The notes: generated from the sequence alone by a model not told the origin. Counted from the first letter of the stretch, positions 1-20,836 are shown. The stretch is DNA of 57,646 nt from an uncultured Alphaproteobacteria bacterium (GCA_902522015.1 CABYTX010000003.1:1-57646); one strand, 5' to 3'. Numbers and translations are program-made.

Positions 1-1
1 A

Positions 2-1480: not shown

Positions 1481-1483
1481 ACT

Positions 1484-2398
1484 ATGCACAAAAAACCTCT
1501 ATCTAAACAAATATATGATGCAAGATGGTGTTACTTATTTGTTTTACCATGCTCAATTCTTACAGGAATGTTTGTCATTTATCCTATTGGAATGTCTTGG
1601 TATTTTTCTTTATTAGATTGGAGTGGTTTTACAAAAGAAGCAAAATTCATTGGCCTTCAAAATTATTATGAAGCTGTTAATGATGAATTCTTTTGGGATG
1701 CATTCATTCGTTCTTTTATTTTTATGTTTGGAACAGTTCCAGTAAAAATTGTTTTAGGATTTATAATTGCAGTATTTTTAAATAATCAAGTTTTGAAACT
1801 TGCTCCTTTCTTTCGTACTGTAATCTTTATGCCTGTAGTTACTGCAATTGCTATCATTGGTATTGTAATGACTTTTGTATTTAGCCCTTTTAATGGACCT
1901 GCTAATAAATTTTTAATGTCTACTAATTTAACTTCTGCTCCAATTGATTTTCTTGGAAACCCAGATACGGTGCTTCCAACTGTAATGGGAGTGTATGTTT
2001 GGAAATGGCTAGGGATAACTATGATGTATTGGCTTGCTGCTTTACAAACAGTCCCACAAGATGTTTACGATGCCGCAAAAATTGATGGTGCTGAAGGATA
2101 TAGATTATGGATCCATATTATTCTACCTATTGTACTACCTTTTGCTATTGTCATTATTCTTGTTGAGGCAGTTGGAGCGCTAAATGTTTTTCCTTTAATT
2201 GAAACTATGACTGCTGGAGGACCATTCTTTAGTAGTGAAGTTATGGAAATATATATTTTTAGAACAGCTTTTGTAACTGATTCTGGAACAATGCCTAGGC
2301 TTGGATATGCTTGTGCTGCAGGAGTATTTTGGGGTGTTGCTGTTTTATTTATTACAGTTCTTCAGGGATTATGGATGAGGAGAACTCGAAGAATATGA
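1484..2398 (+). CDS. ABC sugar transporter permease (MalF/UgpA-like)
   Basis: Multi-TM protein with an EAA-type loop (DAAKIDGAEGYRLWIHIILP) and operon context. Confidence 0.9.
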   Translation: MHKKPLSKQIYDARWCYLFVLPCSILTGMFVIYPIGMSWYFSLLDWSGFTKEAKFIGLQNYYEAVNDEFFWDAFIRSFIFMFGTVPVKIVLGFIIAVFLNNQVLKLAPFFRTVIFMPVVTAIAIIGIVMTFVFSPFNGPANKFLMSTNLTSAPIDFLGNPDTVLPTVMGVYVWKWLGITMMYWLAALQTVPQDVYDAAKIDGAEGYRLWIHIILPIVLPFAIVIILVEAVGALNVFPLIETMTAGGPFFSSEVMEIYIFRTAFVTDSGTMPRLGYACAAGVFWGVAVLFITVLQGLWMRRTRRI

Positions 2399-3246
2399 GT
2401 AGATACTTAAATTTTATTGCTGAAAAAAACCAAGTTAAATATTTAATTATAACTATAGCTTTTATTATTTTCTCTTTCTTTTGGATCTATCCATTACTGT
2501 GGGTACTTTCAGCCTCTTTCAAAACAGATTTTGAAATTTGGGGAGGCTTAGGTTTAATCCCTGACCGGCTTGTTTGGGAAAATTTTGAAAGAGCATGGTT
2601 TGGTGCAAACATGGGTAGGTATTTTTTTAATACCCTTATTATTACAGTTGTTTCTGTAATTATAGTTGTCGTAACAACTGGTATGTTTGGTTATGTAATT
2701 GGAAGATATTCTTTTCCAGGAAAAAAAATACTTATTGGAATTTTAATTAGTACAATTTTTATTCCTCAAGGTTACACAATTATTCCTGTTTTTGATTTAT
2801 TAAATAATTTAAATATTTCTAAAAACTTAATTGGACTAACACTCGCAACGGCAGGACACACCCCTGTAATTTATATTTTATTATTTGCAGGATATTTTTC
2901 AAGAGTTCCTGTGGAGCTTGAAGAAGCAGCTAAAATGGATGGAGCGGGCTTTGTTCGAACATTTATTTCAATCATGTTACCTTTAACCAAACCAGTAGTA
3001 GCTACAGTTTCTATTCTACAAGTTTTACATGCATGGAATGACTTTTTATTACCAGTCGTTATCACTCTAGGTAATCCTGATATACGAACACTATCCGTAG
3101 GTGTGTACGCTTTTAAAGGCGAATACTTTGTCGATTGGTCTGGTATGGCAGCTGCATCTGTTATAACTATTTTGCCTATAATTATATTGTTTTTGTTTAT
3201 GCAAAAATATTTCGTTGAAGGTGTTCAAGGAGCTGTAAAAGGGTAA
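2395..3246 (+). CDS. ABC sugar transporter permease (MalG/UgpE-like)
   Basis: The ATGA overlap with the upstream stop places the start at 2395 (MSRYLNF...). EAA loop EEAAKMDGAGFVRTFISIMLP is present. The ORF-track start at 2311 would overlap the previous gene by 88 nt. Confidence 0.88.
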   Translation: MSRYLNFIAEKNQVKYLIITIAFIIFSFFWIYPLLWVLSASFKTDFEIWGGLGLIPDRLVWENFERAWFGANMGRYFFNTLIITVVSVIIVVVTTGMFGYVIGRYSFPGKKILIGILISTIFIPQGYTIIPVFDLLNNLNISKNLIGLTLATAGHTPVIYILLFAGYFSRVPVELEEAAKMDGAGFVRTFISIMLPLTKPVVATVSILQVLHAWNDFLLPVVITLGNPDIRTLSVGVYAFKGEYFVDWSGMAAASVITILPIIILFLFMQKYFVEGVQGAVKG

Positions 3247-3248
3247 AG

Positions 3249-4790
3249 ATGAAAAGACCAAATATTTTATTAATAACTTCCGATCAACAGCATCACGATA
3301 CCATTGGAAAATTTAATTCAAAAATACAAACACCGTATTTAGATAAGCTTTGTAATGAAGGAATGAATTTTACAAGAGCTTATTGTCCATCACCAGTTTG
3401 CACACCATCAAGAGCAAGTATTATTACTGGACAATATCCGTCTTCTCATGGAGCTTGGACAATTGGTGTTAAATTAGATGAAGAAGTAGAAACTATTGGA
3501 GAACTTTTATACAAAAATGGTTACTCTACTGGTTTAATTGGTAAAGCGCATTTCCAGCCATTAACTTCAGTTCCAGGTCAGGAATCTATAGAAGGACAAC
3601 CAACTTTAAGAGATTTAGAATTTTGGAAAAATTTTAAAGGACCTTGGTATGGCTTTGAACATATTGAGCTAGCACGTAATCATGCAGATGAAAGTCATGT
3701 AGGTCAACATTATGCAATTTGGATGGAACAAAACGGTCTTAGTGATTGGAAAGAATATTTTCAACCAGTGCCTGGTGAAACTTCTAAATATGCTCCTCCA
3801 ATTGCTCGTGAATATGACTACTGGGCAAGACCGGATAGGGTTTGGAAGTTAGACGAAAAACATCATTACACAAATTGGACAGCCGAAAGATCAATTGAAT
3901 TTTTAGATCAACAAAAAGATGACAAGCCATTTTTTCTTTGGACAAGCTTTCAGGATCCACATCCACCATATGTATTAAGTGAACCATGGGCATCAATGTA
4001 TAATCCAGAAGACATGTCACCTGGAACTTTAAAAGAAGGTGAACACGAATTAAATCCACCACATTTTGGCAAAACACAAACGACAAATCCTGATTTCGAG
4101 AATTGGCATTCACCATTTAACGCTCATGGTTGCATGAGTCATCTGTATCCTATGGAAGAATTAAAAAAAGACATGGCAATTTATTATGGCATGGTTAGTT
4201 TTATGGATAATAATATTGGAAAAATTATTAATAAGTTAGATCAAATGGGTGAACTTGATAATACCATAATTATTTTTACTACTGATCATGGTCACTTTAT
4301 AGGACAGCATGGTTTAATTGCTAAAGGACCTTTCCACTATGAAGATATGCTCCGTTTACCTTTTATTGTTAGATGGCCAGATAAAGTTCCTCAAAATTCA
4401 TCATCTTCATCTTTATTGAGTTTAGTTGATCTTGCGCCAACATTTTTAAAAGTCGCGGGCATTGATATACCAACCCAAATGCAAGGAGTGGATCAAACGG
4501 ATGTATTTTATGGCAACAAGGACAGTATCCGTTCACATATATTTGTTGAAAACAGACATAATCCAAGAATGCCACATTTAAAAACTTACATAAATAATAA
4601 TTATAAAATTTCTATTTACCGAGAAGCTAACTACGGTGAACTTTTTGATTTAGAAAATGATCCAAACGAATATAATAATTTATGGGATAATACAAACGCA
4701 CAAACATTAAAAAAAGATTTATTATTTAAGTTTGCGCAAGCCACATTAAAAGATGAAACATCAAAAATGAAAAGAGTTTCAGGCGCTTAA
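3249..4790 (+). CDS. Sulfatase (Cys-type, formylglycine-dependent family S1), no signal peptide
   Basis: N-terminus is MKRPNILLITSDQQ. FGly motif is CTPSRASIITG, and TTDHG is also present. There is no hydrophobic leader. Confidence 0.92.
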   Translation: MKRPNILLITSDQQHHDTIGKFNSKIQTPYLDKLCNEGMNFTRAYCPSPVCTPSRASIITGQYPSSHGAWTIGVKLDEEVETIGELLYKNGYSTGLIGKAHFQPLTSVPGQESIEGQPTLRDLEFWKNFKGPWYGFEHIELARNHADESHVGQHYAIWMEQNGLSDWKEYFQPVPGETSKYAPPIAREYDYWARPDRVWKLDEKHHYTNWTAERSIEFLDQQKDDKPFFLWTSFQDPHPPYVLSEPWASMYNPEDMSPGTLKEGEHELNPPHFGKTQTTNPDFENWHSPFNAHGCMSHLYPMEELKKDMAIYYGMVSFMDNNIGKIINKLDQMGELDNTIIIFTTDHGHFIGQHGLIAKGPFHYEDMLRLPFIVRWPDKVPQNSSSSSLLSLVDLAPTFLKVAGIDIPTQMQGVDQTDVFYGNKDSIRSHIFVENRHNPRMPHLKTYINNNYKISIYREANYGELFDLENDPNEYNNLWDNTNAQTLKKDLLFKFAQATLKDETSKMKRVSGA

Positions 4791-4806
4791 TTAAGAAAGG
4801 ATAAAG

Positions 4807-6306
4807 ATGAGAATTTTATACGTAGACATAGACTCTTTAAGACCTGATCATTTAGGATGTTATGGTTATCATAGAAACACATCTCCTACGATTGACTCAA
4901 TAGCAAAAGAAGGGGTCAAGTTTACAAATTTTTATTCAACTGACACACCGTGCCTACCTAGTAGAACTGCTTTGTTTGGAGGTAATTTTGGTTTCAAAAC
5001 TGGAGTTGTCAATCATGGCGGCGAATTCTCTGATATTGCTCCTAGAAAAAATATTTGGAATAGAGAATTTAAAGGGGGTTTAAGAGGAGAATATGCTTTT
5101 ACATCTCTTGGAAAAGTTCTTCGAGATGCAGGATATTATACAGCAAGTATCAGTCCTTTCCCTGAAAGACATACAGCTTATCAAGTTTGGTTTGGTTTTA
5201 CCGAAACGTATGACACTGGAAAAGGTGGTTTAGAAAATGCTGATGAAGTCTATCCTGTTATAAAAAAGTGGTTAGAAAATAATGGAGAAAAAGAAAATTG
5301 GTTCTTACATGTAAATATGTGGGATCCTCATACTCCGTATGATACGCCTGAAGACTTTGGAAATCCTTTTAAAGATGATCCTATCGAAGAATGGGTGACA
5401 GAAGAATTAATTCAAAAACAAAGGAATAGTTTCGGACCGCATAGCGCTAGAGAAGTTCCAGGATTTGATGAAGATCTTCGAGGAAAGTATACAATGGGAG
5501 TAGGCGAAATTAAAAATACTTCTGATGCTAAAGAACAAATTGATGCATATGATACTGGAATTAAGTACGCTGATTTTTATTTAAATAAAGTTTTTGAAGA
5601 CTTAAAAAAAATGAACCTTTGGGATGATACAGCAATAATTATTTCAGCAGACCACGGAGAAAATCAAGGCGAGTTAAATGTATGGGGAGATCACCAAACA
5701 GCTGATCATATAACTAATAGAGTCCCATTAATAATTAGATGGCCGGGGATAACAGATACAAATACAGGAAGTACTGTAGAAAATAAATTTTATAATTTAG
5801 ATTTAACTTCAACTATTTCTCAAATTACTTCATCTTCACAACCTGATAGATGGGATGGTATTAATTTCACTGAAAATTTAACTAATAGTAAATCATCAAA
5901 TGGAAGGGATTATTTAGTTATTAGTCATGGTGCTTGGAGTTGTCAAAGATCAGTAAGATGGGATAATTGGTTACTGATAAGAACGTACGACACTGGTTTA
6001 AAAGATTTTCCAAAATATATGCTTTTTGATATTGAAAAGGATCCTCATGAGTTGAATAACCTAGCAGATCAGCATAAAGATCTCGTAGCACATGGAATGT
6101 TTTTAATCGATGAGTGGATTGAAGAAAATATGTATGAGGCTGATAGAGGAGATCCACTTCAAGGTGTAATTAGAGAAGGCGGTCCTCATCATGCAAATAT
6201 TTATTCAAAAGTCTGGAATACATATGTTGAGCGTCTTGAAAAAACAGATAGAAAAAAACACGCTGACAATCTTAGGAAATATAAAGGAAAACCTTTTAGT
6301 AAATAA
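4807..6306 (+). CDS. Sulfatase (Cys-type), no signal peptide
   Basis: N-terminus is MRILYVDIDSLRPDHLG. FGly motif is CLPSRTALFGG, and SADHGE is also present. Confidence 0.9.
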   Translation: MRILYVDIDSLRPDHLGCYGYHRNTSPTIDSIAKEGVKFTNFYSTDTPCLPSRTALFGGNFGFKTGVVNHGGEFSDIAPRKNIWNREFKGGLRGEYAFTSLGKVLRDAGYYTASISPFPERHTAYQVWFGFTETYDTGKGGLENADEVYPVIKKWLENNGEKENWFLHVNMWDPHTPYDTPEDFGNPFKDDPIEEWVTEELIQKQRNSFGPHSAREVPGFDEDLRGKYTMGVGEIKNTSDAKEQIDAYDTGIKYADFYLNKVFEDLKKMNLWDDTAIIISADHGENQGELNVWGDHQTADHITNRVPLIIRWPGITDTNTGSTVENKFYNLDLTSTISQITSSSQPDRWDGINFTENLTNSKSSNGRDYLVISHGAWSCQRSVRWDNWLLIRTYDTGLKDFPKYMLFDIEKDPHELNNLADQHKDLVAHGMFLIDEWIEENMYEADRGDPLQGVIREGGPHHANIYSKVWNTYVERLEKTDRKKHADNLRKYKGKPFSK

Positions 6307-6318
6307 ATCTAAATCATA

Positions 6319-7686
6319 ATGAATATTAAATCTAAACCAAATATTATTGTATTTTTTACTGATCAACAACGTTGGGATACTTCTGGTTTACATGGCAATC
6401 CATTATCCTTGATGGAGAACTTTGATCATTATGCAGTTGAAGGTACACATCTTTATAATTCATTTACATGTCAACCAGTTTGCGGGCCTGCAAGAGCATC
6501 ATTACAATCAGGAATGTATGCAACAAAAACTGGATGTTTTAAAAATAGAATACCTTTAAAAAAAAATATTAAAACTCTTGCAAAATATCTATCAAAAGAA
6601 GGTTATGCCACTGGATATATTGGAAAATGGCATCTCGGCTCTTCTGAACCAGTTAAAAAAGAGGATAGAGGTGGTTATGATTATTGGTTGGGATCAAATC
6701 TATTAGAATTTACTTCTGATGCTTATGAAACATATGTTTATGATGGACAAAATAAAAAAGTATTTCTTCCAGGATATAGAGTTGATGCAATAACTGATGC
6801 AGCTATAAATTTTATAAAACTAAATCAAAAAAAACCATTTTTTCTTTTTGTTTCTCTTATTGAGCCACATCATCAAAATAATTCAGATGATTATCCACCA
6901 CCTATTGGATACAGAGAAAAATATACAGGCAAGTGGTCACCACCAGATCTTTCAACTCTAGTTGGATCTTCTCCTCGCCATTTAGGTGGTTACTATGGAA
7001 TGGTGAAGAGAATAGATGAAGCTTATGGCAGAATGATTGATGTCATCAAAAGTTTAAAATTATTTGATGATAGTGCCATTATTTTTACATCTGATCATGG
7101 AAATAATTTTAAAACACGAAATAGAGAATATAAACGTTCATGTCATGAAAGTTCAATACGAGTTCCTACATCTTTGATTGGAAATGTTTTTCAGCAAGGT
7201 GGACGTATAAAAGAACTTACCAACATTCTAGATATTCATGCAACAATATTAGATTTAGCAAAAGTCAAAAATACTTCTCATTGCGATGGTAGATCAGTAT
7301 TGCCTTTAGTGAATAAAACTTCCAAAAAATGGGATAACGAAATTTTTATCCAAATTAGTGAAAGTCAATTAGCTAGAAGTTTAAGAACTGAAAAATGGAA
7401 ATATTGTATTGCTGATCAAGATTCTAATGGAAGTGACAAACCTTCATCAAATCAATACACAGAAACAAATCTATACGATCTTGATGCTGATCCGTACGAA
7501 TTAAATAACTTAATTGGTATTAGTACTTATGATGAAATAGTAAACTCCTTAAGAAAAAAGATTAAAAGTAAAATTAGAAAAGTTGAAAATATTACAACTA
7601 AAATTACAAAAGCTAAAAATGTAAATAATCCTGGTCAAATGGGATTAAATCCTGATTCTTTTCATAGATTAAAGAAAAAACTTTAA
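6319..7686 (+). CDS. Sulfatase (Cys-type), no signal peptide
   Basis: N-terminus contains PNIIVFFTDQQRWD. FGly motif is CGPARASLQSG. GKWHLG and TSDHG are also present. Confidence 0.92.
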   Translation: MNIKSKPNIIVFFTDQQRWDTSGLHGNPLSLMENFDHYAVEGTHLYNSFTCQPVCGPARASLQSGMYATKTGCFKNRIPLKKNIKTLAKYLSKEGYATGYIGKWHLGSSEPVKKEDRGGYDYWLGSNLLEFTSDAYETYVYDGQNKKVFLPGYRVDAITDAAINFIKLNQKKPFFLFVSLIEPHHQNNSDDYPPPIGYREKYTGKWSPPDLSTLVGSSPRHLGGYYGMVKRIDEAYGRMIDVIKSLKLFDDSAIIFTSDHGNNFKTRNREYKRSCHESSIRVPTSLIGNVFQQGGRIKELTNILDIHATILDLAKVKNTSHCDGRSVLPLVNKTSKKWDNEIFIQISESQLARSLRTEKWKYCIADQDSNGSDKPSSNQYTETNLYDLDADPYELNNLIGISTYDEIVNSLRKKIKSKIRKVENITTKITKAKNVNNPGQMGLNPDSFHRLKKKL

Positions 7687-7716
7687 TAATTTTTTTTTCG
7701 TATTAATCTAATTTTT

Positions 7717-9219
7717 ATGAAAACAGTTTTCCTTTTATTTGATTCATTAAATAAAAGAATGTTAAATTCTTATGGTGGTAAATATATTGAAACACCAAAT
7801 TTTAACCGATTAGCAGAAAAATCAGTTCAATTTAATAATCATTATATTGGAAGTATGCCATGTATGCCCGCAAGACGTGATATGCACTCGGGACGCTTAA
7901 GCTTTTTGCACCGTGCATGGGGTCCTTTAGAACCTTTTGATAATTCATTTCCAGAAATCTTAAGACTTAATAATACATATACTCATCTTGTAACTGATCA
8001 TTATCATTACTTCGAAGATGGTGGTGCAACATATCATAATAGATTTAATTCTTGGGATTTTATTAGAGGACAAGAGAGTGATCCATGGAAAGCTATGGTT
8101 CAACCACCTCTTGAAAAATTGAGAGAAAAATATCATCAATCTCAATTAAATTTAACTGATAGGGAAACAGGTTATTATCATTACGCAATCAATAGTGAGT
8201 TTATTAAAGCAGAAAAAGATTTTCCTTCAGTCAAATGCTTTCAATCTGGATTAGATTTTATTAATATCAATAAAGATGCTGATAACTGGTTTCTTCAATT
8301 GGAAACTTTTGATCCACACGAACCTTTCTTTGCACCTGAACGCTTTAGAGAAAAATTAAAAACTAATTACAAAGGTCCAAGATTAGATTGGCCTCAATAT
8401 GACAGAGTTAAAGAAACAGATGATGAAGTTGCGGAATTAAAAGCCAACTACATTGCTTTAATTGGTTTATGTGATTACTTGTTAGGTACTGTCTTAGATT
8501 ATTTTGATAAAAATAATTTATGGGATGACACTGCATTGATTTTAACTACTGATCATGGCTTTATGCTCGGAGAACATGATTGGTGGGCTAAAAATAGAAT
8601 GCCTTTATATAATGAAATTGCCAATATTCCGTTCTATTTCTATCATCCTGAATTTAAAGATCATTCTGGTGAACAAAGAAATGTTGTAACACAAAATATT
8701 GATCTGATGCCTACGTTTATGACAATGCACGGTCATGATGTTCCTAAAGAAGTAAAAGGTAAGTCCATTTTAAATTTTTTAGATAAAGATAATGAAAATG
8801 ATTATTTTGCTTTGTATGGATATTGGGGCGGTGGAATTAATATCTCTGATGGGAAATATTCGTATTTTCACTATCCTGAAAATTTTGACCAGTATGATAG
8901 AAGTAGATTTCAATATACTTTAATGCCTACAAATATGAGACAATTTTTTTCACATGAAGAGTTACAAACAGCAACTATGCATGAGCCTTTTGATTTTACT
9001 AAGAACATACCAGTAATGAAAGTAAACAGAATACTTCGAAAGACTGATCCTCATAAATCTTTAGAAGATACTAAAAGTGCACTTTATGATTTAAAAAATG
9101 ATCCAGGTCAATTAAGCCCAGTTAATGATATTGCCTTAATGACTAAATATAAAAATATCATGTTGGAAGAAATTAAAACTTATGATCCCCCTGAAGAATT
9201 ATTAAAAAATTATTTCTAA
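7717..9219 (+). CDS. Sulfatase-family hydrolase (Cys-type), no signal peptide
   Basis: N-terminus is MKTVFLLFDSLN. FGly motif is CMPARRDMHSGR, and TTDHG is also present. Confidence 0.85.
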   Translation: MKTVFLLFDSLNKRMLNSYGGKYIETPNFNRLAEKSVQFNNHYIGSMPCMPARRDMHSGRLSFLHRAWGPLEPFDNSFPEILRLNNTYTHLVTDHYHYFEDGGATYHNRFNSWDFIRGQESDPWKAMVQPPLEKLREKYHQSQLNLTDRETGYYHYAINSEFIKAEKDFPSVKCFQSGLDFININKDADNWFLQLETFDPHEPFFAPERFREKLKTNYKGPRLDWPQYDRVKETDDEVAELKANYIALIGLCDYLLGTVLDYFDKNNLWDDTALILTTDHGFMLGEHDWWAKNRMPLYNEIANIPFYFYHPEFKDHSGEQRNVVTQNIDLMPTFMTMHGHDVPKEVKGKSILNFLDKDNENDYFALYGYWGGGINISDGKYSYFHYPENFDQYDRSRFQYTLMPTNMRQFFSHEELQTATMHEPFDFTKNIPVMKVNRILRKTDPHKSLEDTKSALYDLKNDPGQLSPVNDIALMTKYKNIMLEEIKTYDPPEELLKNYF

Positions 9220-9340
9220 AAAATACTAGAAATCCTAGGAAAATATCTTTGTTTTAAAAAAAAATTGCCATTTTAAATTATTGTATAAATTTCTATATCG
9301 GCTAGATTAAATTTATCATTTTAATAATTTGGGAGGAAAA

Positions 9341-10636
9341 ATGAATTTTTTAAAATTTATTACAAAAAAAATTTACTTATTTATTTTCTCATTTTTTTTA
9401 TCATTTGGTTTTATAACAACTAGTTATGCTATTGATATAACAATATGGGATTTAAGTGGTAGAAACGGTCAGGATGAGTTTTATGATAATCTCAATAAAG
9501 AATACAAAAAAATTAATCCTGATGTAAATATTATTCTACAAACATTTGAAAATGAAGCTTACAAAACTCAAATTCAAGTGGCCTTAAATGGTAATGATGG
9601 ACCAGACGTATTCTTTAACTGGTTTGGGGAAGATAGTGCTCGTTTAGCAAGAGCAGGATTAGCATTAGATATAACTCCTTACGCAAATGTTGAAGGTGGA
9701 TATGGTAACTACATTAGTGAAGGATTATCAAACACAACTGCTGTTAATGGTAAAATATATGGAGTACCAAATACTTCAGTCTCAAAATATTTTCACTATG
9801 ACCCTGCTTTTTTTGAAGCAAACAGTTTGGCAGTACCAAAGACATTTGATGACTTATTAAATCTTTGTAGAGATATTAGAGCAATTGATTCATCTATTGT
9901 TCCATGGCCTCTAGGAAACTCAGAAAGATGGAAACTCAATCACGTTATAACTATGTTAAACCAAAGAGTTGTAGGTGAAGAAAATACTGCGGCAGATTAT
10001 AACTTATCTGCATCAGAAGATGAGTTATTCACTAACCCAGCGTATGTTGAGGCTTGGCAAAAAGTTGTAGATCTGCAAGATGCAGGTTGTTTCCAAGATG
10101 CTCCAAATGCTACACATCCAGATCTAACAAGATCAATGTTTGCATCACAAATTTCACCAATGATTTATTGTGGTACATGGTGTGGAGGTATCTTTAATGG
10201 TGAAGGTTTTTCTGACTTTAGCTATTTTAGATTCCCAGAAGTAGTTGGTGGTGCTGGTGCAGCAACTGTAGGTTTCCTTGTTCCATCTGGTATGATGGTA
10301 TCAGCAAAAACCGCACATCCTGAAATTGCAGCACATGTTGCCTCGTTTATGGTTTCAGATGATATGGCATTGCAAGCAGCTGAACTAATGGGTTTCATGC
10401 CTTCTAATCCAACAAAAATTGGCGAAATGAGTAATCCAACTCATTGGTTTAATTTTTATGTTAATGATATTGCAGACAAAACAGGTCACGTAAATGTTTT
10501 GGATGTTTTATTAGAAGCTAATGTTTCAAATGCTTATCTTGATATGGGTACTGAAATTCTAAATAGAACGAAGACTCCACAAGAAGCTATGGATTTTATT
10601 AGGCAGGTTGCTTTAGAAGCTAAAGCAGCGATGTAA
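9341..10636 (+). CDS. ABC transporter solute-binding protein, family 1 (CUT1), with N-terminal signal/anchor
   Basis: ATG at 9341 follows SD GGGAGG (9331-9336). There is a hydrophobic leader ending ...TTSYA. SBP-like sequence is followed by two permease genes. Confidence 0.88.
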   Translation: MNFLKFITKKIYLFIFSFFLSFGFITTSYAIDITIWDLSGRNGQDEFYDNLNKEYKKINPDVNIILQTFENEAYKTQIQVALNGNDGPDVFFNWFGEDSARLARAGLALDITPYANVEGGYGNYISEGLSNTTAVNGKIYGVPNTSVSKYFHYDPAFFEANSLAVPKTFDDLLNLCRDIRAIDSSIVPWPLGNSERWKLNHVITMLNQRVVGEENTAADYNLSASEDELFTNPAYVEAWQKVVDLQDAGCFQDAPNATHPDLTRSMFASQISPMIYCGTWCGGIFNGEGFSDFSYFRFPEVVGGAGAATVGFLVPSGMMVSAKTAHPEIAAHVASFMVSDDMALQAAELMGFMPSNPTKIGEMSNPTHWFNFYVNDIADKTGHVNVLDVLLEANVSNAYLDMGTEILNRTKTPQEAMDFIRQVALEAKAAM

Positions 10637-10646
10637 ATCTTTTATT

Positions 10647-10680
10647 AATTTCGGCTATTTCTTAATAGCCGAAATTTTTT
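10647..10680 (+). terminator. Stem-loop with T-tail between the SBP gene and the first permease gene
   Basis: AATTTCGGCTATT/AATAGCCGAAATT forms a 13-bp stem with a 4-nt loop and a T-run ending at 10680. The permease ATG is at 10681. Confidence 0.7.
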
Positions 10681-11586
10681 ATGAACAAAAATAATACACA
10701 AATAAATAGTTTTTCTTTGTCAAATGACAAAGTATCAGCCACTATACTTCTTGTACCGGCTTTAATATTTTGTACGATTTTTATCTTTATTCCTGCCATT
10801 GGTACAATTGTAGGATCATTTTATAGCTACAGCCTTACTTCAATGAACAATTGGAAATGGGTTGGCTTTGGGAATTACGTTAAAGCAACGCAAGACGAGT
10901 ATTTTTGGGTAGCGTTGAAAAATAACTTTATAATAGTTTTTGCTTCAATTGTGCTTCAGGTAGGTGTTGGAACAATTTTAGCAGCAATTCTTGATAGAGG
11001 AATAAAATATGGAAGAGTAATTTTTCGAACCATAATATTTACTCCAATGGTCATATCATCAGTTGCAGTGAGTTTAATTTGGTTAATAATCTATGACCCA
11101 AATGTTGGTATATTAAATGCTATCGTTAAATCTATTGGTTTATCAACACCGTCTAAGGGGTGGTTAGGAGATCCTAATATTTCAATTTGGATGATAATGA
11201 TAACAGCTGCATGGCAAAATACAGGGTTTATGATGGTCTTAATTCTTGCTGGTCTGCAAGGAGTTTCTAAAGAGGTGTATGATGCAGCTGAAATAGATGG
11301 TGCAACTGGAGTTAAAGCTTTTTGGTATATTACGCTTCCAATGATTAGAAATGTTTTGATTGTTGCAATTTTAATAACAACCATCGGAGCATTTAAAGTT
11401 TTTGAATTTATTTTTGTATTTACTCAAGGAGGGCCATCCAATGCAACTCAAGTTTTAGGTACTTACATTTATTTACAAGCATTCAATTTGCTTCATATGG
11501 GATACGCCAACGCATTATCTGTAATACTTCTTATCATCGCATTATTTTTAGGGTGGTTACAACTTAAATCCAGTAGGAAAGCTTAA
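10681..11586 (+). CDS. ABC sugar transporter permease (MalF-like)
   Basis: Multi-TM protein with EAA loop DAAEIDGATGVKAFWYITLP. Confidence 0.9.
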   Translation: MNKNNTQINSFSLSNDKVSATILLVPALIFCTIFIFIPAIGTIVGSFYSYSLTSMNNWKWVGFGNYVKATQDEYFWVALKNNFIIVFASIVLQVGVGTILAAILDRGIKYGRVIFRTIIFTPMVISSVAVSLIWLIIYDPNVGILNAIVKSIGLSTPSKGWLGDPNISIWMIMITAAWQNTGFMMVLILAGLQGVSKEVYDAAEIDGATGVKAFWYITLPMIRNVLIVAILITTIGAFKVFEFIFVFTQGGPSNATQVLGTYIYLQAFNLLHMGYANALSVILLIIALFLGWLQLKSSRKA

Positions 11587-12404
11587 TGAGTCGATTTAAA
11601 ATAGCAAATATAATAGCTTATGGTTTTGTAACACTGTTTAGCATCTATGTTTTAATGCCAATTTTAGTAATGGTATTAACAACATTTAAATCTAAAAGAG
11701 AAATTTTTTTAGAACCTTTGGGCATTCCTAGTCAATTTGGAATTTCTTCTTTTGAAAAAGCTCTAACTGTTGGACTGGGAAGTTTTATGTTGAATTCTTT
11801 CATAGTATCTTTTTTTGCCGTCTTTTTAATTGTTACAATTTCAGGAATGGCAGCGTACGTACTATCAAGAATCGATTTTAAAATTAATAAATTTGTTTAT
11901 CTATTGGTAGTAGCAGGTTTTGCAATTCCACCCGCTGCAGTTCTTGTTCCCTTATATACGATGGTTTCAAACTTAAATTTATTAAACAGTTTATTTGGAG
12001 TTATTATGCCTCTTACTGCATTTGGAATTCCTTTTACCGTTATACTTTTTTATGCTTTCTTTCTGGATTTTCCAAAAGAAGTAGAAGAGGCTGCCACTAT
12101 TGATGGTTGTACAAAGCTTCAAATATTTTTCAGAATTATTGTACCCCTGTCTGGACCAGTTATTGCAAGTGCTGCAATTTTTCAAACTGTTTGGATTTGG
12201 AATGAATTTTTATTAGCCCTAATAATGTTAACTTCAGACGACTTTAAAACTTTGCCTATAGGTCTATTAAAACTAAGAGGAGAGTGGACATCTGATTGGG
12301 GGGCAATTATGGCAGGACTTACAATAGCGGTAATTCCTGTGTTAATAGTATTCCTAATATTCCAAAAGTATTTTGTTAGATCATTGGCAGGATTAGGAAA
12401 ATAG
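11586..12404 (+). CDS. ABC sugar transporter permease (MalG-like)
   Basis: TAATG coupling to the upstream gene. EAA loop EEAATIDGCTKLQIFFRIIVP is present. Confidence 0.9.
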   Translation: MSRFKIANIIAYGFVTLFSIYVLMPILVMVLTTFKSKREIFLEPLGIPSQFGISSFEKALTVGLGSFMLNSFIVSFFAVFLIVTISGMAAYVLSRIDFKINKFVYLLVVAGFAIPPAAVLVPLYTMVSNLNLLNSLFGVIMPLTAFGIPFTVILFYAFFLDFPKEVEEAATIDGCTKLQIFFRIIVPLSGPVIASAAIFQTVWIWNEFLLALIMLTSDDFKTLPIGLLKLRGEWTSDWGAIMAGLTIAVIPVLIVFLIFQKYFVRSLAGLGK

Positions 12405-12418
12405 TATAGATTTATTTT

Positions 12419-12697
12419 ATGGCAAAAAGACAAAAGGTTTTAGTTCTCTATTTAAAGTTTCCTAGTTTAGAGGCTGAAGTTATTTCTTGGGCTACTTTTG
12501 ATGGTACCGGAAAAAAACTACATATGACGGGTGATAGTGATGAGCCCCCTTATCCAACAGGTCTTGATGCATTATTAGATGGTTGGAGATTATTTCAATC
12601 GAGTCAAGCTATTCCAGAATATCCAGGTCAAGAATTTAGAACATCATATTTAAAACATGAGTTCTTTTTTGAAAAATTAGAAGAAGGAGATTTTTAG
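12419..12697 (+). CDS. Hypothetical 92-aa soluble protein (family not recognised)
   Basis: The ORF sits 14 nt after the permease stop and ends 1 nt before the dioxygenase ATG. It has no TM segment or recognisable motif. Confidence 0.55.
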   Translation: MAKRQKVLVLYLKFPSLEAEVISWATFDGTGKKLHMTGDSDEPPYPTGLDALLDGWRLFQSSQAIPEYPGQEFRTSYLKHEFFFEKLEEGDF

Positions 12698-12698
12698 T

Positions 12699-13619
12699 AT
12701 GCCAAAATTATTAACTACAGAACAAATGGCAGAATTTGCCAGCAGCGGATGTCTATTTTTTGAGGAACTAATTGATGAACAAACTAATAAAGAATTTTTA
12801 GATGATATTGGTCATACCAGTGTAGAAAATGTTGAGAGTGTTCAAACATACTTTGATAATATTAAATCAACTAGCAGCATTCCAAGAATACCAGCTGGAA
12901 CTCCACTTAAAGACTCTTATCCTAAGAATTCACCTCTTGAAAAAATTTTAAAAAATGAGGTTGTAGATGGAGCAATAAAAAGCTTAGTTGGATCTAATCC
13001 ACTTGTAGATCACCAGGCTCTTCATTTAACTTTTCCAACTAAATATTTCAAAGGAGCCAATCAAAGACAAATGTCTCAACAAAATCATCAGGATAGCACT
13101 ATTGATCCAAGATCTACATTTGACATTCAGGTTTTCTATTTTCCAACCGAGGTAACAAAAGAAATGGGAGGTACAAGATATCATCCTGGAACTCATTTAC
13201 GAGTTGTTAATGAGTTTGGCATTGCAAAATATCAGAATATCAAAGGCCAAAAAAGTATTGTTTGTAAACCAGGCACAGTTGGAATATTTCATAACGGATT
13301 GTGGCATGGCGCAGGTGTTAATTTCTCTGAAGAAATTAGATATATGTTTAAAGTAAGGTTACAACCAACAGAGAAACAAGAATTATTATGGGATCCAGAA
13401 AAAAAATATAAGCCCTTACCAAATAGAGCACTTTATTGGTCTGATGAAGTAAAGGAAGTAACCATCAATGATATTTTAATGAAATCTTATCCTTGGCAAG
13501 AAGCAGATACAAATAGACTTGATAAAATTAATGTTGTTAAGTTTTGGAGATTGCTCACTGGTCACAAGAAAATGGATGTTGACTATTGGCTTACAAGAAT
13601 TGAAAACGAATTATATTAA
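12699..13619 (+). CDS. PhyH (phytanoyl-CoA dioxygenase) family Fe(II)/2-oxoglutarate oxygenase
   Basis: Contains an HxD motif (NHQDSTID), a distal His (GLWHGAGVN), and PhyH-like length and N-terminus. Confidence 0.75.
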   Translation: MPKLLTTEQMAEFASSGCLFFEELIDEQTNKEFLDDIGHTSVENVESVQTYFDNIKSTSSIPRIPAGTPLKDSYPKNSPLEKILKNEVVDGAIKSLVGSNPLVDHQALHLTFPTKYFKGANQRQMSQQNHQDSTIDPRSTFDIQVFYFPTEVTKEMGGTRYHPGTHLRVVNEFGIAKYQNIKGQKSIVCKPGTVGIFHNGLWHGAGVNFSEEIRYMFKVRLQPTEKQELLWDPEKKYKPLPNRALYWSDEVKEVTINDILMKSYPWQEADTNRLDKINVVKFWRLLTGHKKMDVDYWLTRIENELY

Positions 13620-15124
13620 TTAAAATTTCTTTCATCACCTTTAAATGGAACAACATCACAAGTTTCTTGATACCATGAAAGCATTTTTTCTTTTAAGTGT
13701 TTAAGCTCTGATGCATATTGAGGATCGTCAATAACATTATTAATTTCTCCAGGATCTTCAATTAAATTATAAAGTTCATCTTTTTCGTAAGCTCTTTTTA
13801 TATATTTAAATTTTTTATTTCTGCACATTGTTGCTTTGGTGTGCATTAAAATTTCATCCTCTTTACCTTGTAAGTTTACTCTTGGAAAATATAAGCCATG
13901 GGGTAAATTTAAACTTTGACTTTCACTTGCCTGTCTCTCTAATCTAAGTCTGCCACCTTCAGTAAATACTTCTTCTCTATGATTATCAGTTTTCTGTTCA
14001 ATAAAATTTTTTATACTTTTGCCAAAATGCCAATATGAAGGATCGATATTACTGTAATCATATATAGTTCCAGCGATATCAATTAACTCAATCATTGTAT
14101 CACTTACACCATTTAACGTATTTTCACTTTTTGGCGGCTTAATAATAAGAGGAACATTCGTAAGACAATCTTGAAAAGTATTTTGTGTTTTTTCAACTAA
14201 ATTATAGTCACCTGTAAAGTCACCATGATCAGATAAAAAAATTATTAAAGTATCATCATATAAATTATTATCTTTAAGTTGATTGACCAAAAGTCCAAAT
14301 TGATAATCTACCCTTGCACACATACCAAGATATACCGCTCGTAATTCATTCCAGCGTTCATCAGTCCAATCTTGCATTCTTTGTCCATCCATTATTCCTT
14401 TTAAAAGACTTGGTTTATCCTCCCATGTTTTGTATTGATATCTTTTAGGAATTACATTTCGATCAATTGAAGAGAACCATGGATCCTCGACACAGTAAGG
14501 GGGATGTGGATAGCCAAGTGGTAGAAATAAACAGAATGGTTTTTCTTTTTTATAATCTTTTATAAAATCTAATGCTCCATAAACCATGGACCAATCATCA
14601 TCGAAATAAATATCTTTATCTTTTTTATCTAATTTTCCTTTAAAGAAACTATAATAATTATCTCCATCCTCAGGTCCTCGCCATAATAGATCTCCACCAT
14701 GTGTACCTGGTTGTTGAGAGTAACCCCATTTTTGATAATCGCTATCCGTTGGTTCAAAGTAAATATCACAATGATTACGATATCCTTCTTGACCTGCTAT
14801 CAAATCATTTTTTCCACCCCACCAAATAAAGTAATCTTTATCTTTTAGTTCTGATAAAATACTAGAGTCACCTTGATCTGTATGTAACATATAATGCATT
14901 GTTCTATGACCATGAACATGTGGATACCAACCAGTCATAAATGAACACCGACTTGGTGTACAAACTGTTGCTTGGCAAAAAGCATTCTTAAATGCAATTG
15001 CATCTTCTTTAATAATATTATCTAAATTAGGAGTTTGTGCACCAGGATACCCTAGATATCCCAGCATATCTCCTCTCCACTGATCAGGGTTAAAAATAAC
15101 AATATTTGGTTTTTTCTGGTTCAT
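13616..15124 (-). CDS. Sulfatase (Cys-type), no signal peptide
   Basis: N-terminus is MNQKKPNIVIFNPDQW. FGly motif is CTPSRCSFMTG, and LSDHGD is also present. Its stop codon shares the TTAA at 13616-13619 with the convergent dioxygenase gene. Confidence 0.92.
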   Translation of the reverse strand: MNQKKPNIVIFNPDQWRGDMLGYLGYPGAQTPNLDNIIKEDAIAFKNAFCQATVCTPSRCSFMTGWYPHVHGHRTMHYMLHTDQGDSSILSELKDKDYFIWWGGKNDLIAGQEGYRNHCDIYFEPTDSDYQKWGYSQQPGTHGGDLLWRGPEDGDNYYSFFKGKLDKKDKDIYFDDDWSMVYGALDFIKDYKKEKPFCLFLPLGYPHPPYCVEDPWFSSIDRNVIPKRYQYKTWEDKPSLLKGIMDGQRMQDWTDERWNELRAVYLGMCARVDYQFGLLVNQLKDNNLYDDTLIIFLSDHGDFTGDYNLVEKTQNTFQDCLTNVPLIIKPPKSENTLNGVSDTMIELIDIAGTIYDYSNIDPSYWHFGKSIKNFIEQKTDNHREEVFTEGGRLRLERQASESQSLNLPHGLYFPRVNLQGKEDEILMHTKATMCRNKKFKYIKRAYEKDELYNLIEDPGEINNVIDDPQYASELKHLKEKMLSWYQETCDVVPFKGDERNFN

Positions 15125-15141
15125 GTATCCCTAAAATTCAG

Positions 15142-15171
15142 TTGACAATTTACCAGAAAAATTCATGTTAA
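15142..15171 (+). promoter_or_regulatory. Possible sigma70-like promoter for the third ABC operon
   Basis: TTGACA at 15142-15147, an 18-nt spacer, then TGTTAA at 15166-15171, in the 80-bp divergent intergenic region. Chance matches are likely in AT-rich DNA. Confidence 0.3.
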
Positions 15172-15204
15172 AACAATAATATTAACAAATTTCTGGGAGG
15201 AAAA

Positions 15205-16455
15205 ATGAGATTAATAAAATTATTTTTAAGTGTCATTTTTTTGTTAGGAATATCATTTAATGCCAATGCAGTAACAATCAAATGGCTTGGATTGGCACAA
15301 GATGACTCTGCGCATAAAGAAGACATTGATGCAGCAATTGCTGATTGGGAAGCAAAAACTGGCCATGAAGTTAAATGGCAGTATATGGCTGGTCCAGACT
15401 TAAAACTGAAATTACCTACAATGTTACAAAGTGACGATGCTCCTCATTTATTTTATAGTTGGGGTGGAGGAGTTATGTTTGATCAAGCAGATGCTGGATT
15501 TTTACAAGACATTTCTGCTATGGTTCCAGATAGTTATTTAGAAAATTTAAGTCCTGCAGCAGCAGACGCTTTTACATACAAAGGTGAAAGAGTTGGTCTT
15601 CCAAATTTATTTAACCAAGTAGTATTTTGGTACAATAAAGATTTAACTGAAAAAGCAGGAGTAGATCCCTCAAAGGTTGTTATGTGGAACGATCTTTTAG
15701 AAGTAGTAAAAGATATAAAAGATGCTGGCATAACACCAATTTGTGTTGGTGGTAAAAATAAATGGCCTATTCATTTCTATTGGACGCTACTCCATGTAAG
15801 AAACGGAGGCAAAGCAGCTTTCTTTGACGCTTTAGAAAATGGTGGATGGGATAGAGAAGAATACATTAAATCTGGATATGAATTCCAACAGCTTGTTGAC
15901 CTTGAACCTTTTCAAGATGGTTTTATGGCAGTTGAATATGGTGATGCTTCAGCAGCATTTGGTAACGGAGAATGCGCACTTCATCTAATGGGAAGTTGGG
16001 ATTACAATGGTGCTAAAAGAAGAAGTACTTCTGGGGAAGGAATTCCTGATGATAGAATGGGAACATTCCAATTTCCAATGACAGAAAATGGAAAAGGAAA
16101 TCCTTCAGATACACTTGGTGGAATTAATGGATGGTTAGTTTCTAAAAATGCACCAAAAGAAGCGGTTGATTTCTTAATGCATTATATTTCAATGAAATAT
16201 CAATCAATGGGAGCAAAAAGTGGAGCGTATATGCCTATTTACAAAGGAGCTGAAACAGAAATGGGTAACAGATTCTTTAAGCAACAGGCGCTTAACGTTG
16301 CAAACTCAACCTTCCATTCTATTTTCTGGGATCAATATCTCGGAAGAGATATTGGTGAGGTTGTAAATGACGTTTCAGTTGAACTAGCAACTAAAGACAT
16401 CACTCCAGAAGAAGCTTGTCAAAGAGTACAAGAGGCTTGGGAGTTTAATCAATAA
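15205..16455 (+). CDS. ABC transporter solute-binding protein, family 1 (CUT1), with signal peptide
   Basis: SD GGGAGG lies upstream. Leader is MRLIKLFLSVIFLLGISFNANA. SBP-like sequence is followed by two permease genes. Confidence 0.9.
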   Translation: MRLIKLFLSVIFLLGISFNANAVTIKWLGLAQDDSAHKEDIDAAIADWEAKTGHEVKWQYMAGPDLKLKLPTMLQSDDAPHLFYSWGGGVMFDQADAGFLQDISAMVPDSYLENLSPAAADAFTYKGERVGLPNLFNQVVFWYNKDLTEKAGVDPSKVVMWNDLLEVVKDIKDAGITPICVGGKNKWPIHFYWTLLHVRNGGKAAFFDALENGGWDREEYIKSGYEFQQLVDLEPFQDGFMAVEYGDASAAFGNGECALHLMGSWDYNGAKRRSTSGEGIPDDRMGTFQFPMTENGKGNPSDTLGGINGWLVSKNAPKEAVDFLMHYISMKYQSMGAKSGAYMPIYKGAETEMGNRFFKQQALNVANSTFHSIFWDQYLGRDIGEVVNDVSVELATKDITPEEACQRVQEAWEFNQ

Positions 16456-16464
16456 ATATCAAAT

Positions 16465-16490
16465 AGAGGGGCAAATAATTTTGCCCCTCT
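16465..16490 (+). terminator. Stem-loop after the SBP gene (attenuator or mRNA stabiliser)
   Basis: AGAGGGGCAAA/TTTGCCCCTCT forms a perfect 11-bp stem with a 4-nt loop. There is no immediately adjacent T-tail; the nearest T-run is about 12 nt downstream. Confidence 0.55.
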
Positions 16491-16512
16491 GTATAAAAGT
16501 TATTTTTTTTGA

Positions 16513-20088: not shown

Positions 20089-20099
20089 AAGGAATATGA

Positions 20100-20813: not shown

Positions 20814-20836
20814 AGTAATATTATATAGGAAATCAT

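What the first reader, a model, noticed from the sequence alone, without database searches (positions are those of the whole stretch)
3249..15124. All five Cys-type sulfatases are leaderless (cytoplasmic) and no formylglycine-generating system is nearby
Each sulfatase carries a C-x-P-x-R FGly motif: CTPSR, CLPSR, CGPAR, CMPAR and CTPSR. Each begins directly with the catalytic-domain beta-strand (for example MKRPNILLITSDQQ, MNQKKPNIVIFNPDQW) and has no Sec/Tat or lipoprotein leader. In contrast, the neighbouring SBPs do carry clear leaders. Cys-type sulfatases need FGE (SUMF1-type, O2/Cu-dependent) or an anSME radical-SAM maturase, and neither is present in the 57 kb. Five paralogs acting in the cytoplasm implies several distinct sulfate positions on imported substrates. 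It also means the maturase is encoded elsewhere or is non-canonical.
Basis: partly seen in the sequence, partly recalled or inferred. Interest (0 to 1): 0.7.

Follow-up and report, generated by a model that had tools for sequence, protein, structure and literature searches.

The report
Cytoplasmic sulfatase island in AEGEAN-169 bacterioplankton
Five signal-less sulfatase genes sit beside sugar importers in an abundant streamlined ocean bacterium (AEGEAN-169/HIMB59), an ordinary bacterial arrangement; whether the enzyme that activates them is encoded elsewhere in the genome could not be checked.

Summary
Five ORFs (3249-4790, 4807-6306, 6319-7686, 7717-9219 on +, 13616-15124 on -) are Pfam Sulfatase proteins. 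Each has one CxPxR motif at residue 49-55. Each starts 3-7 residues before the catalytic domain, with in-frame stops just upstream, so no leader is possible. Six-frame HMM searches find no FGE or anSME in the 57 kb or in about 6.7 kb further upstream.

The implied oddity is not supported. The window comes from AEGEAN-169/HIMB59 single-cell genomes. The module SBP-permease-permease-S1 recurs in Deinococcota, Chloroflexota, Gamma- and Alphaproteobacteria, and its sulfatase is leaderless in all 46 distant loci. A canonical FGE lies within 10 kb in 9 of those 47 loci, directly downstream in Roseibium, and is absent from the other 38. So "no FGE nearby" is the usual state for an FGE-client family.

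The genes are under purifying selection and appear in seawater metatranscriptomes. The best reading is import of small sulfated carbohydrates, cytoplasmic desulfation, and maturation by an FGE encoded elsewhere. I could not test genome-wide FGE presence, so a non-canonical maturase stays a minority possibility (about 0.15). I rate this a new member of a known kind, with modest interest.

The parts
1..1438 (+). SBP0. CUT1-type extracellular solute-binding protein, 510 aa in full. Its first ~54 codons, including a Tat leader, lie upstream of the window.
   Evidence: PF01547/PF13416 plus TAT_signal on the full-length copy in L002. N-terminus MKKKKELKISRRTVMKGALAAGAMM. Highest metatranscriptome depth in the cluster.
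1484..3246 (+). Two ABC permease genes (1484-2398 and 2395-3246) of the SBP0 importer.
   Evidence: BPD_transp_1 in the identical locus L001. Collinear with S1 in most distant loci.
3249..4790 (+). S1. Leaderless Cys-type sulfatase, CTPSR at C51.
   Evidence: PF00884 E 4e-55 over residues 4-405. Stop 1 codon upstream. 58-68% identical leaderless orthologues in 46 distant loci. 137 synonymous vs 20 nonsynonymous codon differences against AG-337-I02.
4807..6306 (+). S2. Leaderless Cys-type sulfatase-family enzyme, CLPSR at C49. Lacks the GKxH motif.
   Evidence: PF00884 E 4e-40. Motif and upstream stop. Alignment. 61% orthologue directly after S1 in Trueperaceae.
6319..7686 (+). S3. Leaderless Cys-type sulfatase, CGPAR at C55.
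   Evidence: PF00884 E 6e-48.. Nearest structures are carbohydrate sulfatases 5g2v and 9ihk.
7717..9219 (+). S4. Leaderless Cys-type sulfatase-family enzyme, CMPAR at C49. Lacks GKxH and resembles the PMH/PehA group.
   Evidence: PF00884 E 3e-28. Best NCBIfam hit is PehA, far below its cutoff. PDB hits include phosphonate monoester hydrolases.
9341..12404 (+). Second CUT1 importer: SBP1 with a Sec leader (9341-10636) and two permeases (10681-11586, 11586-12404). This module is present in only some sister genomes.
   Evidence: PF13416/PF01547. Leader hydrophobicity 2.57. Present in 10 of 33 sister loci. A transcript contig joins 9093 to 12675, skipping the module.
12699..13619 (+). PhyH1. PhyH-family Fe(II)/2-oxoglutarate dioxygenase, convergent with S5 and overlapping it by 4 nt.
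   Evidence: PF05721 E 3e-11. Found next to S5 in 20 or more sister loci and in none of the distant loci.
13616..15124 (-). S5. Leaderless Cys-type sulfatase, CTPSR at C55.
   Evidence: PF00884 E 2e-34. Stop 2 codons upstream. Nearest structures are alphaproteobacterial cytosolic arylsulfatase/PMH enzymes 4uph, 4upi and 4upl.
15205..18233 (+). Third CUT1 importer: SBP2 with a Sec leader (15205-16455) and two permeases (16513-17409, 17409-18233).
   Evidence: ORFs. Leader hydrophobicity 2.90...SFNANA/VT. Homology to the other permease pairs.
18233..22150 (+). Downstream sugar-processing genes: PhyH2 dioxygenase (18233-18946), Gfo/Idh/MocA oxidoreductase (18946-20088), ThuA-like protein (20100-20813) and xylose isomerase (20837-22150).
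   Evidence: Pfam hits PF05721, PF01408/PF22725, PF06283 and PF01261. The gene names other than the Pfam families are my reading of the sequences.

Best explanation
This is a modular, partly flexible carbohydrate-utilisation island of the AEGEAN-169/HIMB59 lineage (GTDB genus AG-337-I02 and relatives).

Three CUT1 ABC importers take up small sulfated organic compounds, most likely sulfated mono- or oligosaccharides. Their binding proteins are exported by Tat or Sec.

Five mutually divergent (22-29% identical) formylglycine-type sulfatase-family enzymes stay in the cytoplasm. Each removes a different ester group. The carbon skeleton then passes to the neighbouring oxidoreductases, PhyH-type oxygenases, ThuA-like protein and xylose isomerase.

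The active-site Cys in each CxPxR motif is converted to formylglycine in the cytoplasm, most probably by a canonical O2-dependent FGE encoded elsewhere in the genome.

Shown: gene identities, lack of leaders, conserved catalytic residues, the conserved importer-sulfatase module, purifying selection, and transcripts in seawater. Inferred: the substrate class, the actual formylglycine modification, and the existence of an FGE elsewhere.
For: All five carry the Sulfatase domain. One CxPxR each, and no room for a leader. Invariant D12, C51, P53, R55, H238, D346 and H347 across the five.

Lineage: S1 is 96-99% identical in more than 30 GORG single-cell genomes, including 'Pelagibacteraceae bacterium AG-337-I02'. 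AG-337-I02 is AEGEAN-169, order HIMB59 (PMC8692485). AEGEAN169 genomes are reported to carry about five PF00884 genes, and SAR11 Ia/Ib none (PMC11366302).

SBP0-permease-permease-S1 is collinear in Trueperaceae, Granulosicoccus, Devosia, roseobacters, Roseibium and unassigned Pseudomonadota MAGs. S1 is leaderless in 46 of 46 distant loci. A Trueperaceae MAG carries orthologues of all five sulfatases (51-68% identity).

A canonical FGE lies within 10 kb of the S1 orthologue in 9 of 47 distant loci. In Roseibium it starts 4 nt after S1.

Synonymous codon differences outnumber nonsynonymous by about 2 to 9 to 1 (about 4-9:1 for S1-S4, 2.5-4:1 for S5). Four seawater metatranscriptomes cover the cluster: SBP0 depth 360-496, sulfatases 1.4-22.
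Against: No FGE or anSME was found in the roughly 64 kb examined. I could not show one elsewhere in any AEGEAN-169 genome.

Two protein searches seeded with AT-rich FGEs did not show an AEGEAN-169 copy in their best-120 lists, as far as the named hits and three of the roughly fifteen unnamed NCBI entries were checked. The low-GC candidates I followed up from an AT-biased DNA scan belonged to other lineages, and most of its 120 loci were never assigned to a lineage. This is weak negative evidence, because those searches could easily have missed one.

No substrate is identified. All five are only about 25-30% identical to any solved sulfatase. S2 and S4 lack the GKxH motif and resemble promiscuous arylsulfatase/phosphonate-monoester hydrolases, so not all five need be sulfatases in vivo.

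Localisation rests on a heuristic, not on SignalP.
Confidence: 0.65

Rival explanations
1. The lineage has no canonical FGE or anSME at all. The Cys is converted by an unidentified system, like the still-unknown 'third' Cys-to-formylglycine activity of E. coli. An oxygenase encoded in the island, such as one of the PhyH-type Fe/2OG enzymes, might do this. Alternatively the enzymes work slowly with unmodified Cys.
For: No FGE or anSME in the window plus 6.7 kb upstream in 34 genomes. AT-rich FGE probes did not surface an AEGEAN-169 FGE.

E. coli modifies Cys-type sulfatases by machinery that remains elusive, and unmodified choline sulfatase still turns over (PMC6189696).

Three PhyH-family oxygenases are island-specific.
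Against: 38 of 47 distant orthologous loci also lack an FGE within 10 kb, so local absence is uninformative. 9 of 47 have a canonical FGE adjacent, which shows the family is an FGE client.

The PhyH genes are absent from all distant loci, including the Trueperaceae locus that holds all five sulfatases. They are therefore not a conserved partner. PhyH1 also evolves much faster than the sulfatases.

The FGE hunt was not exhaustive.
Confidence: 0.15
2. Some of the five, especially S2, S4 and perhaps S5, are not sulfatases in vivo. They would be formylglycine-dependent phosphonate-monoester or phosphodiester hydrolases used for phosphorus scavenging, a strong selective theme in HIMB59. This is compatible with the main model for S1 and S3.
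For: S4's best NCBIfam hit is PehA. PDB neighbours of S2, S4 and S5 include PMHs 4upk, 2w8s and 2vqr. S2 and S4 lack GKxH. P-related flexible islands are prominent in HIMB59 (PMC10734472).
Against: Scores are far below the PehA cutoff (129 vs 900 bits). The genes are embedded in sugar-importer and sugar-catabolism operons, not with pst or phn genes. S2 immediately follows S1 in Trueperaceae and the related unassigned MAGs (L035, L037-L039).
Confidence: 0.15
3. The enzymes are exported despite lacking leaders, by hitch-hiking on a Tat partner or by non-classical secretion, and act in the periplasm.
For: SBP0 has a Tat leader. This is the only conceivable hook.
Against: There is no evidence of any partner. 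The leaderless state and the importer linkage are conserved across phyla. A leaderless GHL6 glycosidase sits in the same island in some genomes, which also points to cytoplasmic processing.
Confidence: 0.03

Closest known systems
Cytoplasmic Cys-type bacterial sulfatases with dedicated importers (P. aeruginosa AtsA with the ats ABC transporter; rhizobial choline-O-sulfatase BetC)
   Same: Leaderless, a CxPxR Cys nucleophile, the substrate is imported and desulfated inside the cell, and the maturase is not necessarily adjacent. E. meliloti has a putative FGE elsewhere (PMC6189696). The AtsA details are from my own knowledge.
   Different: None of the five reaches the NCBIfam cutoffs for arylsulfatase PRK13759 or choline sulfatase TIGR03417. 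Here there are five divergent enzymes with three CUT1 sugar-type importers, in a streamlined oligotroph.
Alphaproteobacterial arylsulfatase / phosphonate-monoester-hydrolase group (PDB 2vqr, 2w8s, 4uph, 4upi, 4upk, 4upl)
   Same: These are among the nearest solved structures for S2, S4 and S5 (top for S5; ranked 2nd-4th for S4 and 3rd-4th for S2) (E 1e-20 to 1e-32). From my own knowledge they are cytosolic, formylglycine-dependent and promiscuous.
   Different: Only distant similarity. PehA scores are far below the cutoff. The genomic context here is sugar uptake.
Orthologous SBP-permease-permease-sulfatase(-FGE) modules in Roseibium, Devosia, Martelella, Consotaella and Trueperaceae
   Same: Same gene order, 58-68% identical leaderless S1, and 48-54% identical binding protein (Trueperaceae, Ruegeria and Roseibium loci).
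   Different: Nine of these loci have a canonical FGE within 10 kb, directly adjacent in some. The AEGEAN-169 island has none. It adds PhyH oxygenases, two more importers and S5 modules.
Bacteroidota polysaccharide-utilisation loci with periplasmic sulfatases matured by anSME
   Same: Multiple S1-family sulfatases clustered with carbohydrate uptake genes. The carbohydrate sulfatases 5g2v and 9ihk are the closest structures for S1 and S3.
   Different: Those enzymes carry signal peptides and act in the periplasm or on the cell surface, with SusC/D uptake and a radical-SAM maturase (my own knowledge). Here the enzymes are leaderless, uptake is by ABC importers, and there is no radical-SAM gene.

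Membership tests
S1 formylglycine-dependent sulfatases (Pfam PF00884) | Sulfatase catalytic domain | tested here: met
   All five: E 3e-28 to 4e-55, 99-188 bits against a cutoff of 25.
S1 formylglycine-dependent sulfatases (Pfam PF00884) | (C/S)-x-(P/A)-x-R signature about 50 residues from the N-terminus | tested here: met
   CTPSR, CLPSR, CGPAR, CMPAR and CTPSR at residues 49-55, one per protein. C, P and R are invariant in the alignment.
S1 formylglycine-dependent sulfatases (Pfam PF00884) | Metal-binding and catalytic residues (N-terminal Asp, His, Asp-His pair) | tested here: met
   D12, H238, D346 and H347 (S1 numbering) are invariant in all five. The GKxH Lys/His pair is present in S1 and S3, partial in S5, and absent in S2 and S4. 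Mapping these onto the roles of known enzymes is from my own knowledge.
S1 formylglycine-dependent sulfatases (Pfam PF00884) | Cys actually converted to formylglycine; sulfate-ester hydrolysis | not testable with these tools
   Needs mass spectrometry and enzyme assays.
Cytoplasmic (leaderless) bacterial sulfatases | No Sec, Tat or lipoprotein signal | tested here: met
   The domain starts at residue 3-7. In-frame stops lie 1-15 codons upstream, maximum hydrophobicity is 0.4-1.3, and there is no RR. This is heuristic; SignalP was not run.
Cytoplasmic (leaderless) bacterial sulfatases | Genetic linkage to an uptake system for the substrate | tested here: met
   Three SBP-permease-permease sets are in the island. 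SBP0-perm-perm-S1 is conserved across phyla.
Canonical FGE maturation (PF03781) | FGE gene in the window or its neighbourhood | tested here: not met
   hmmsearch --max on all six frames gave no hit in the window. The best E-value in 34 sister loci was 1.9.
Canonical FGE maturation (PF03781) | FGE gene anywhere in the same genome | tested here: inconclusive
The indirect hunts found only FGEs of other lineages.
Canonical FGE maturation (PF03781) | Orthologues of the client sulfatase associated with FGE elsewhere | tested here: met
   An FGE with the catalytic Cys pair lies within 10 kb of the S1 orthologue in 9 of 47 distant loci.
anSME maturation (radical SAM / SPASM) | Radical-SAM CxxxCxxC protein similar to anSME | tested here: not met
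   phmmer with anSMEcpe gave no hit in the window or sister loci. No CxxxCxxC in any window ORF of at least 80 aa. The genome-wide question is not testable here.
Choline sulfatase BetC (TIGR03417), arylsulfatase PRK13759, PehA (NF045661) | Score above NCBI's curated equivalog cutoff | tested here: not met
   Best scores were 268, 197 and 191 bits against cutoffs of 481, 433 and 900.

The most novel reading that the evidence does not exclude
Sulfatase-bearing AEGEAN-169 genomes (streamlined, low-GC genomes per PMC10308909; about 1.4 Mb from my own knowledge) might contain neither FGE nor anSME. Their five expressed, conserved cytoplasmic Cys-type sulfatases would then depend on the still-unidentified 'third' Cys-to-formylglycine system. 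That would leave a very small gene set in which to find it, with the island's own PhyH-type Fe/2OG oxygenases as obvious candidates.
Probability: 0.15. Interest if true: 0.7.

Novelty: new member of a known kind. Interest (0 to 1): 0.3.

Why it matters
AEGEAN-169/HIMB59 is an abundant, barely cultured oligotroph. Its published genome analyses stress sugar transport, and their main texts do not mention sulfatases. Only a per-genome count has been reported.

An expressed, conserved importer-plus-cytoplasmic-sulfatase island suggests that this streamlined lineage scavenges small sulfated carbohydrates released by algae or by polysaccharide degraders. That is a modest addition to marine carbon and sulfur cycling.

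The maturation question matters only if whole-genome searches find no FGE or anSME. In that case the lineage would be a compact model for the long-unidentified third formylglycine system.

Tried and rejected
1. N-terminal extensions. Rejected, because in-frame stops lie directly upstream of all five starts.

2. FGE or anSME hidden in unannotated frames. Rejected by the six-frame HMM search and the CxxxCxxC scan.

3. Finding the lineage's FGE elsewhere.
- An AT-codon-biased DNA pattern for EAEWE...GNVWEW in metagenome contigs gave 120 loci. The low-GC cytosolic candidates belonged to other lineages: marine Chloroflexota/SAR202 (L133, L092) and Nitrososphaeraceae (L162).
- Three unnamed NCBI hits (P0076, P0059, P0325) came from non-GORG assemblies whose gene neighbourhoods differ from the window lineage; the other unnamed NCBI entries in the two lists were not traced to their assemblies.
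- No single-cell sequencing runs were available to lay on candidates.
- Result: no answer. This is not evidence of absence.

4. Literature. No paper in the library links SAR11 or AEGEAN-169 with formylglycine. The AEGEAN-169 and HIMB59 genome papers do not mention sulfatases in their main text. The supplements of PMC11366302 list PF00884 counts only. A search for SulfAtlas subfamily 'S1_30' was mis-parsed and useless.

5. PhyH1 as a conserved sulfatase partner. The last protein search returned only close marine variants (74-91% identical), so distant contexts could not be examined. PhyH is absent from all 47 distant S1 loci, which argues against a conserved partnership.


Full report
**What is there**

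The window has low GC (24-37%). It carries housekeeping genes (my reading of the translations) such as ileS, lspA, pgi, the lpx genes, coxBAC, thrC and two amt genes.

Its first 22 kb is a carbohydrate-type island:
- the C-terminal part of a binding protein (SBP0) and two permeases;
- four tandem sulfatase-family genes, S1 3249-4790, S2 4807-6306, S3 6319-7686 and S4 7717-9219;
- a second binding protein and permease pair (9341-12404);
- a PhyH-family dioxygenase (12699-13619), convergent with a fifth sulfatase gene, S5 13616-15124 on the minus strand;
- a third binding protein and permease pair (15205-18233);
- a second PhyH protein, a Gfo/Idh/MocA oxidoreductase, a ThuA-like protein and xylose isomerase.

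**Checking the observation**

All five proteins match Pfam Sulfatase (E 3e-28 to 4e-55). The match starts at residue 3-7 of the protein and position 1-3 of the profile. The catalytic domain therefore begins essentially at the initiator Met.

Each has exactly one Cys-type signature at residue 49-55: CTPSR, CLPSR, CGPAR, CMPAR and CTPSR. The listed ORFs are already maximal, and an in-frame stop lies 1-15 codons upstream of each start. Start-codon revision cannot add a leader.

N-terminal hydrophobicity is 0.4-1.3 for the sulfatases and 2.6-2.9 for SBP1 and SBP2. None of the five has a twin arginine. SBP0, read in full in sister locus L002, carries a Tat leader.

In an alignment of the five, D12, C51, P53, R55, H238, D346 and H347 are invariant, while overall pairwise identity is only 22-29%. 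They look like five intact but anciently diverged enzymes, not recent duplicates.

I validated an FGE probe against solved FGE structures (E 1e-67) and an anSME probe (exact match to 4k37). I searched both, with filters off, against every reading frame. There is no hit in the window, and no ORF has a radical-SAM CxxxCxxC motif.

**Where it comes from**

S1 is 96-99% identical in more than 30 tropical-ocean single-cell genomes (AG-xxx), one of them named 'Pelagibacteraceae bacterium AG-337-I02'. AG-337-I02 is the GTDB genus name for AEGEAN-169, order HIMB59, the former SAR11 subclade V (PMC8692485).

One paper reports an average of five PF00884 genes per genome in an AEGEAN169 genus and none in SAR11 Ia/Ib. 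It did not look at maturation (PMC11366302). The two main AEGEAN-169/HIMB59 genome papers do not mention sulfatases in their main text.

**Comparative anatomy**

The 34 sister loci extend about 6.7 kb upstream of the window. That stretch holds a Gfo/Idh/MocA oxidoreductase, a CUT2-type sugar ABC system, a third PhyH protein, a fatty-acid-desaturase-like protein and a glyoxalase-fold protein. It contains no FGE.

The island is modular. After S4, the sister loci fall into four arrangements:
- 20 loci go straight to PhyH1-S5;
- 7, including the window, insert the SBP1 importer;
- 3 add a leaderless GHL6 glycosidase;
- 2 have only S5.

Outside the lineage, the collinear unit SBP0-permease-permease-S1 recurs in Trueperaceae and other Deinococcota, Granulosicoccus, Devosia, roseobacters, Roseibium and unassigned Pseudomonadota MAGs; Mesorhizobium and the Chloroflexota loci carry S1 without the importer. 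In every one of the 46 distant loci tested, the S1 orthologue starts within a few residues of the PNILLITSDQQH strand. There is usually a stop or no plausible start upstream. The leaderless state is therefore a family trait.

One Trueperaceae MAG (L035) has orthologues of all five enzymes: S1 68%, S2 61%, S3 56%, S5 52% and S4 51% identity. It also has the importer at 54-63%. The five-enzyme set is old and has moved between phyla.

**The maturase question**

In 9 of the 47 distant loci a canonical FGE lies within 10 kb of the S1 orthologue; seven full-length copies retain the catalytic Cys pair, while the two Devosia copies are cut off by the locus end. In Roseibium it begins 4 nt after the S1 stop. 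This shows that the enzyme family is served by ordinary FGE.

The other 38 distant loci have no FGE within 10 kb. Absence from the neighbourhood is therefore the commoner state and carries little information.

I tried to find an FGE belonging to AEGEAN-169 itself and could not. An AT-biased DNA pattern scan of metagenome contigs and two protein searches seeded with AT-rich FGEs brought up SAR202/Chloroflexota, Nitrososphaeraceae, Bacillales and other lineages only. These searches list only the best 120 matches and could easily miss the target. The result is 'not determined'.

For context, E. coli converts Cys-type sulfatases by machinery that remains unidentified. Unmodified choline sulfatase retains slow turnover (PMC6189696 citing Benjdia et al. 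2007). An FGE-less solution would therefore have precedent.

**Are the genes functional?**

Against sister genomes, synonymous codon differences outnumber nonsynonymous ones by about 2 to 9 to 1 (about 4-9:1 for S1-S4, 2.5-4:1 for S5). For S1 against AG-337-I02 the counts are 137 and 20.

S1 words are found in many seawater metatranscriptomes. In four of them the whole cluster is covered:
- the binding-protein genes are very deep (SBP0 360-496, SBP1 76, SBP2 35 in run X25);
- the sulfatases are at 1.4-22.

This pattern is typical of ABC systems. Contig depth is only a rough proxy, and DNA carry-over cannot be excluded.

**Likely mechanism**

Small sulfated carbohydrates are bound in the periplasm and imported by the CUT1 systems. 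They are then desulfated in the cytoplasm by enzymes specific for different positions or sugars, and catabolised by the neighbouring enzymes.

S1 and S3 are closest to carbohydrate sulfatases (5g2v, 9ihk). S5 is closest to cytosolic alphaproteobacterial arylsulfatase/phosphonate-monoester hydrolases, which also rank among the top four PDB hits for S2 and S4. S2 and S4 also lack the GKxH motif. Some of the five may therefore act on other esters. All similarities are distant (E 1e-20 to 1e-47) and below every NCBI equivalog cutoff. No substrate can be named.

Formylglycine formation by a cytosolic FGE encoded elsewhere is the default inference.

**Verdict**

The facts in the finding hold. The arrangement is a new, ecologically interesting member of a well-known kind: cytoplasmic Cys-type sulfatases coupled to importers. 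It is not an anomaly.

The only route to real novelty is genome-wide absence of FGE and anSME. I put that at about 0.15, and a simple profile search of the public genomes would settle it.

Noticed in passing
L055, L054, L059, L067, L069, L071, L074, L049 (FGE genes next to S1 orthologues); also L133, L092: Cytosolic FGEs next to leaderless sulfatases carry an N-terminal Cys-Cys motif. It often reads CC(T/V/A)P(S/D/N/G)R, which looks like the sulfatase CxPxR signature itself, for example KACCTPDRG and SCCAPSRDG. SAR202-type FGEs have CCSPQSNR or CCLPSNS. It might be a pseudo-substrate or a metal-handling tail. I do not know whether it has been described.
   Followed up: partly
window 9093-12675, and sister loci L002-L034: The island is modular. 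The SBP1 importer module is present in about a third of sister genomes, a leaderless GHL6 glycosidase in three, and a GMC oxidoreductase plus an HpcH/CitE-like gene sits between S2 and S3 in L029-L031. One metatranscriptome contig joins 9093 to 12675, which matches the variant without the SBP1 module.
   Followed up: partly
L035 (Trueperaceae MAG JAGQHN010000013.1): Orthologues of all five sulfatases (51-68% identity), plus the SBP0 importer, cluster in a Deinococcota MAG. The next-best S1 relatives of this alphaproteobacterial gene are also Deinococcota. This suggests inter-phylum transfer of the whole set.
   Followed up: partly
window 12699-13619, 18233-18946; L002 4192-6137: Three PhyH-family Fe(II)/2OG dioxygenases and a fatty-acid-desaturase-like di-iron protein sit in the island. 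They are absent from all distant S1 loci. PhyH1 diverges much faster than the sulfatases (about 79% nucleotide identity, 52 nonsynonymous codon differences). Their role is unknown.
   Followed up: partly
window 1-18233: The window encodes no ABC ATPase for any of the three CUT1 importers. The only ABC_tran gene, upstream in L002 at 3452-4189, belongs to a CUT2-type system. This implies a shared ATPase encoded elsewhere.
   Followed up: no
window 1-1438: SBP0 transcripts are about 25-80-fold deeper than those of the adjacent sulfatases in seawater metatranscriptomes (depth 360-496 vs 6-14 in run X25). Its substrate may therefore be an important resource for this lineage.
   Followed up: no
window 52581-55934: Two tandem ammonium-transporter paralogues flank a 124-aa ORF (53997-54371) that has no Pfam match.
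   Followed up: no
L202-L207 (marine Chloroflexota/SAR202 contigs): Low-GC marine Chloroflexota encode a leaderless FGE between gidB and hflK/C, a few kb from a leaderless sulfatase and an Old Yellow Enzyme. This is another oceanic lineage with cytoplasmic sulfatase maturation.
   Followed up: partly
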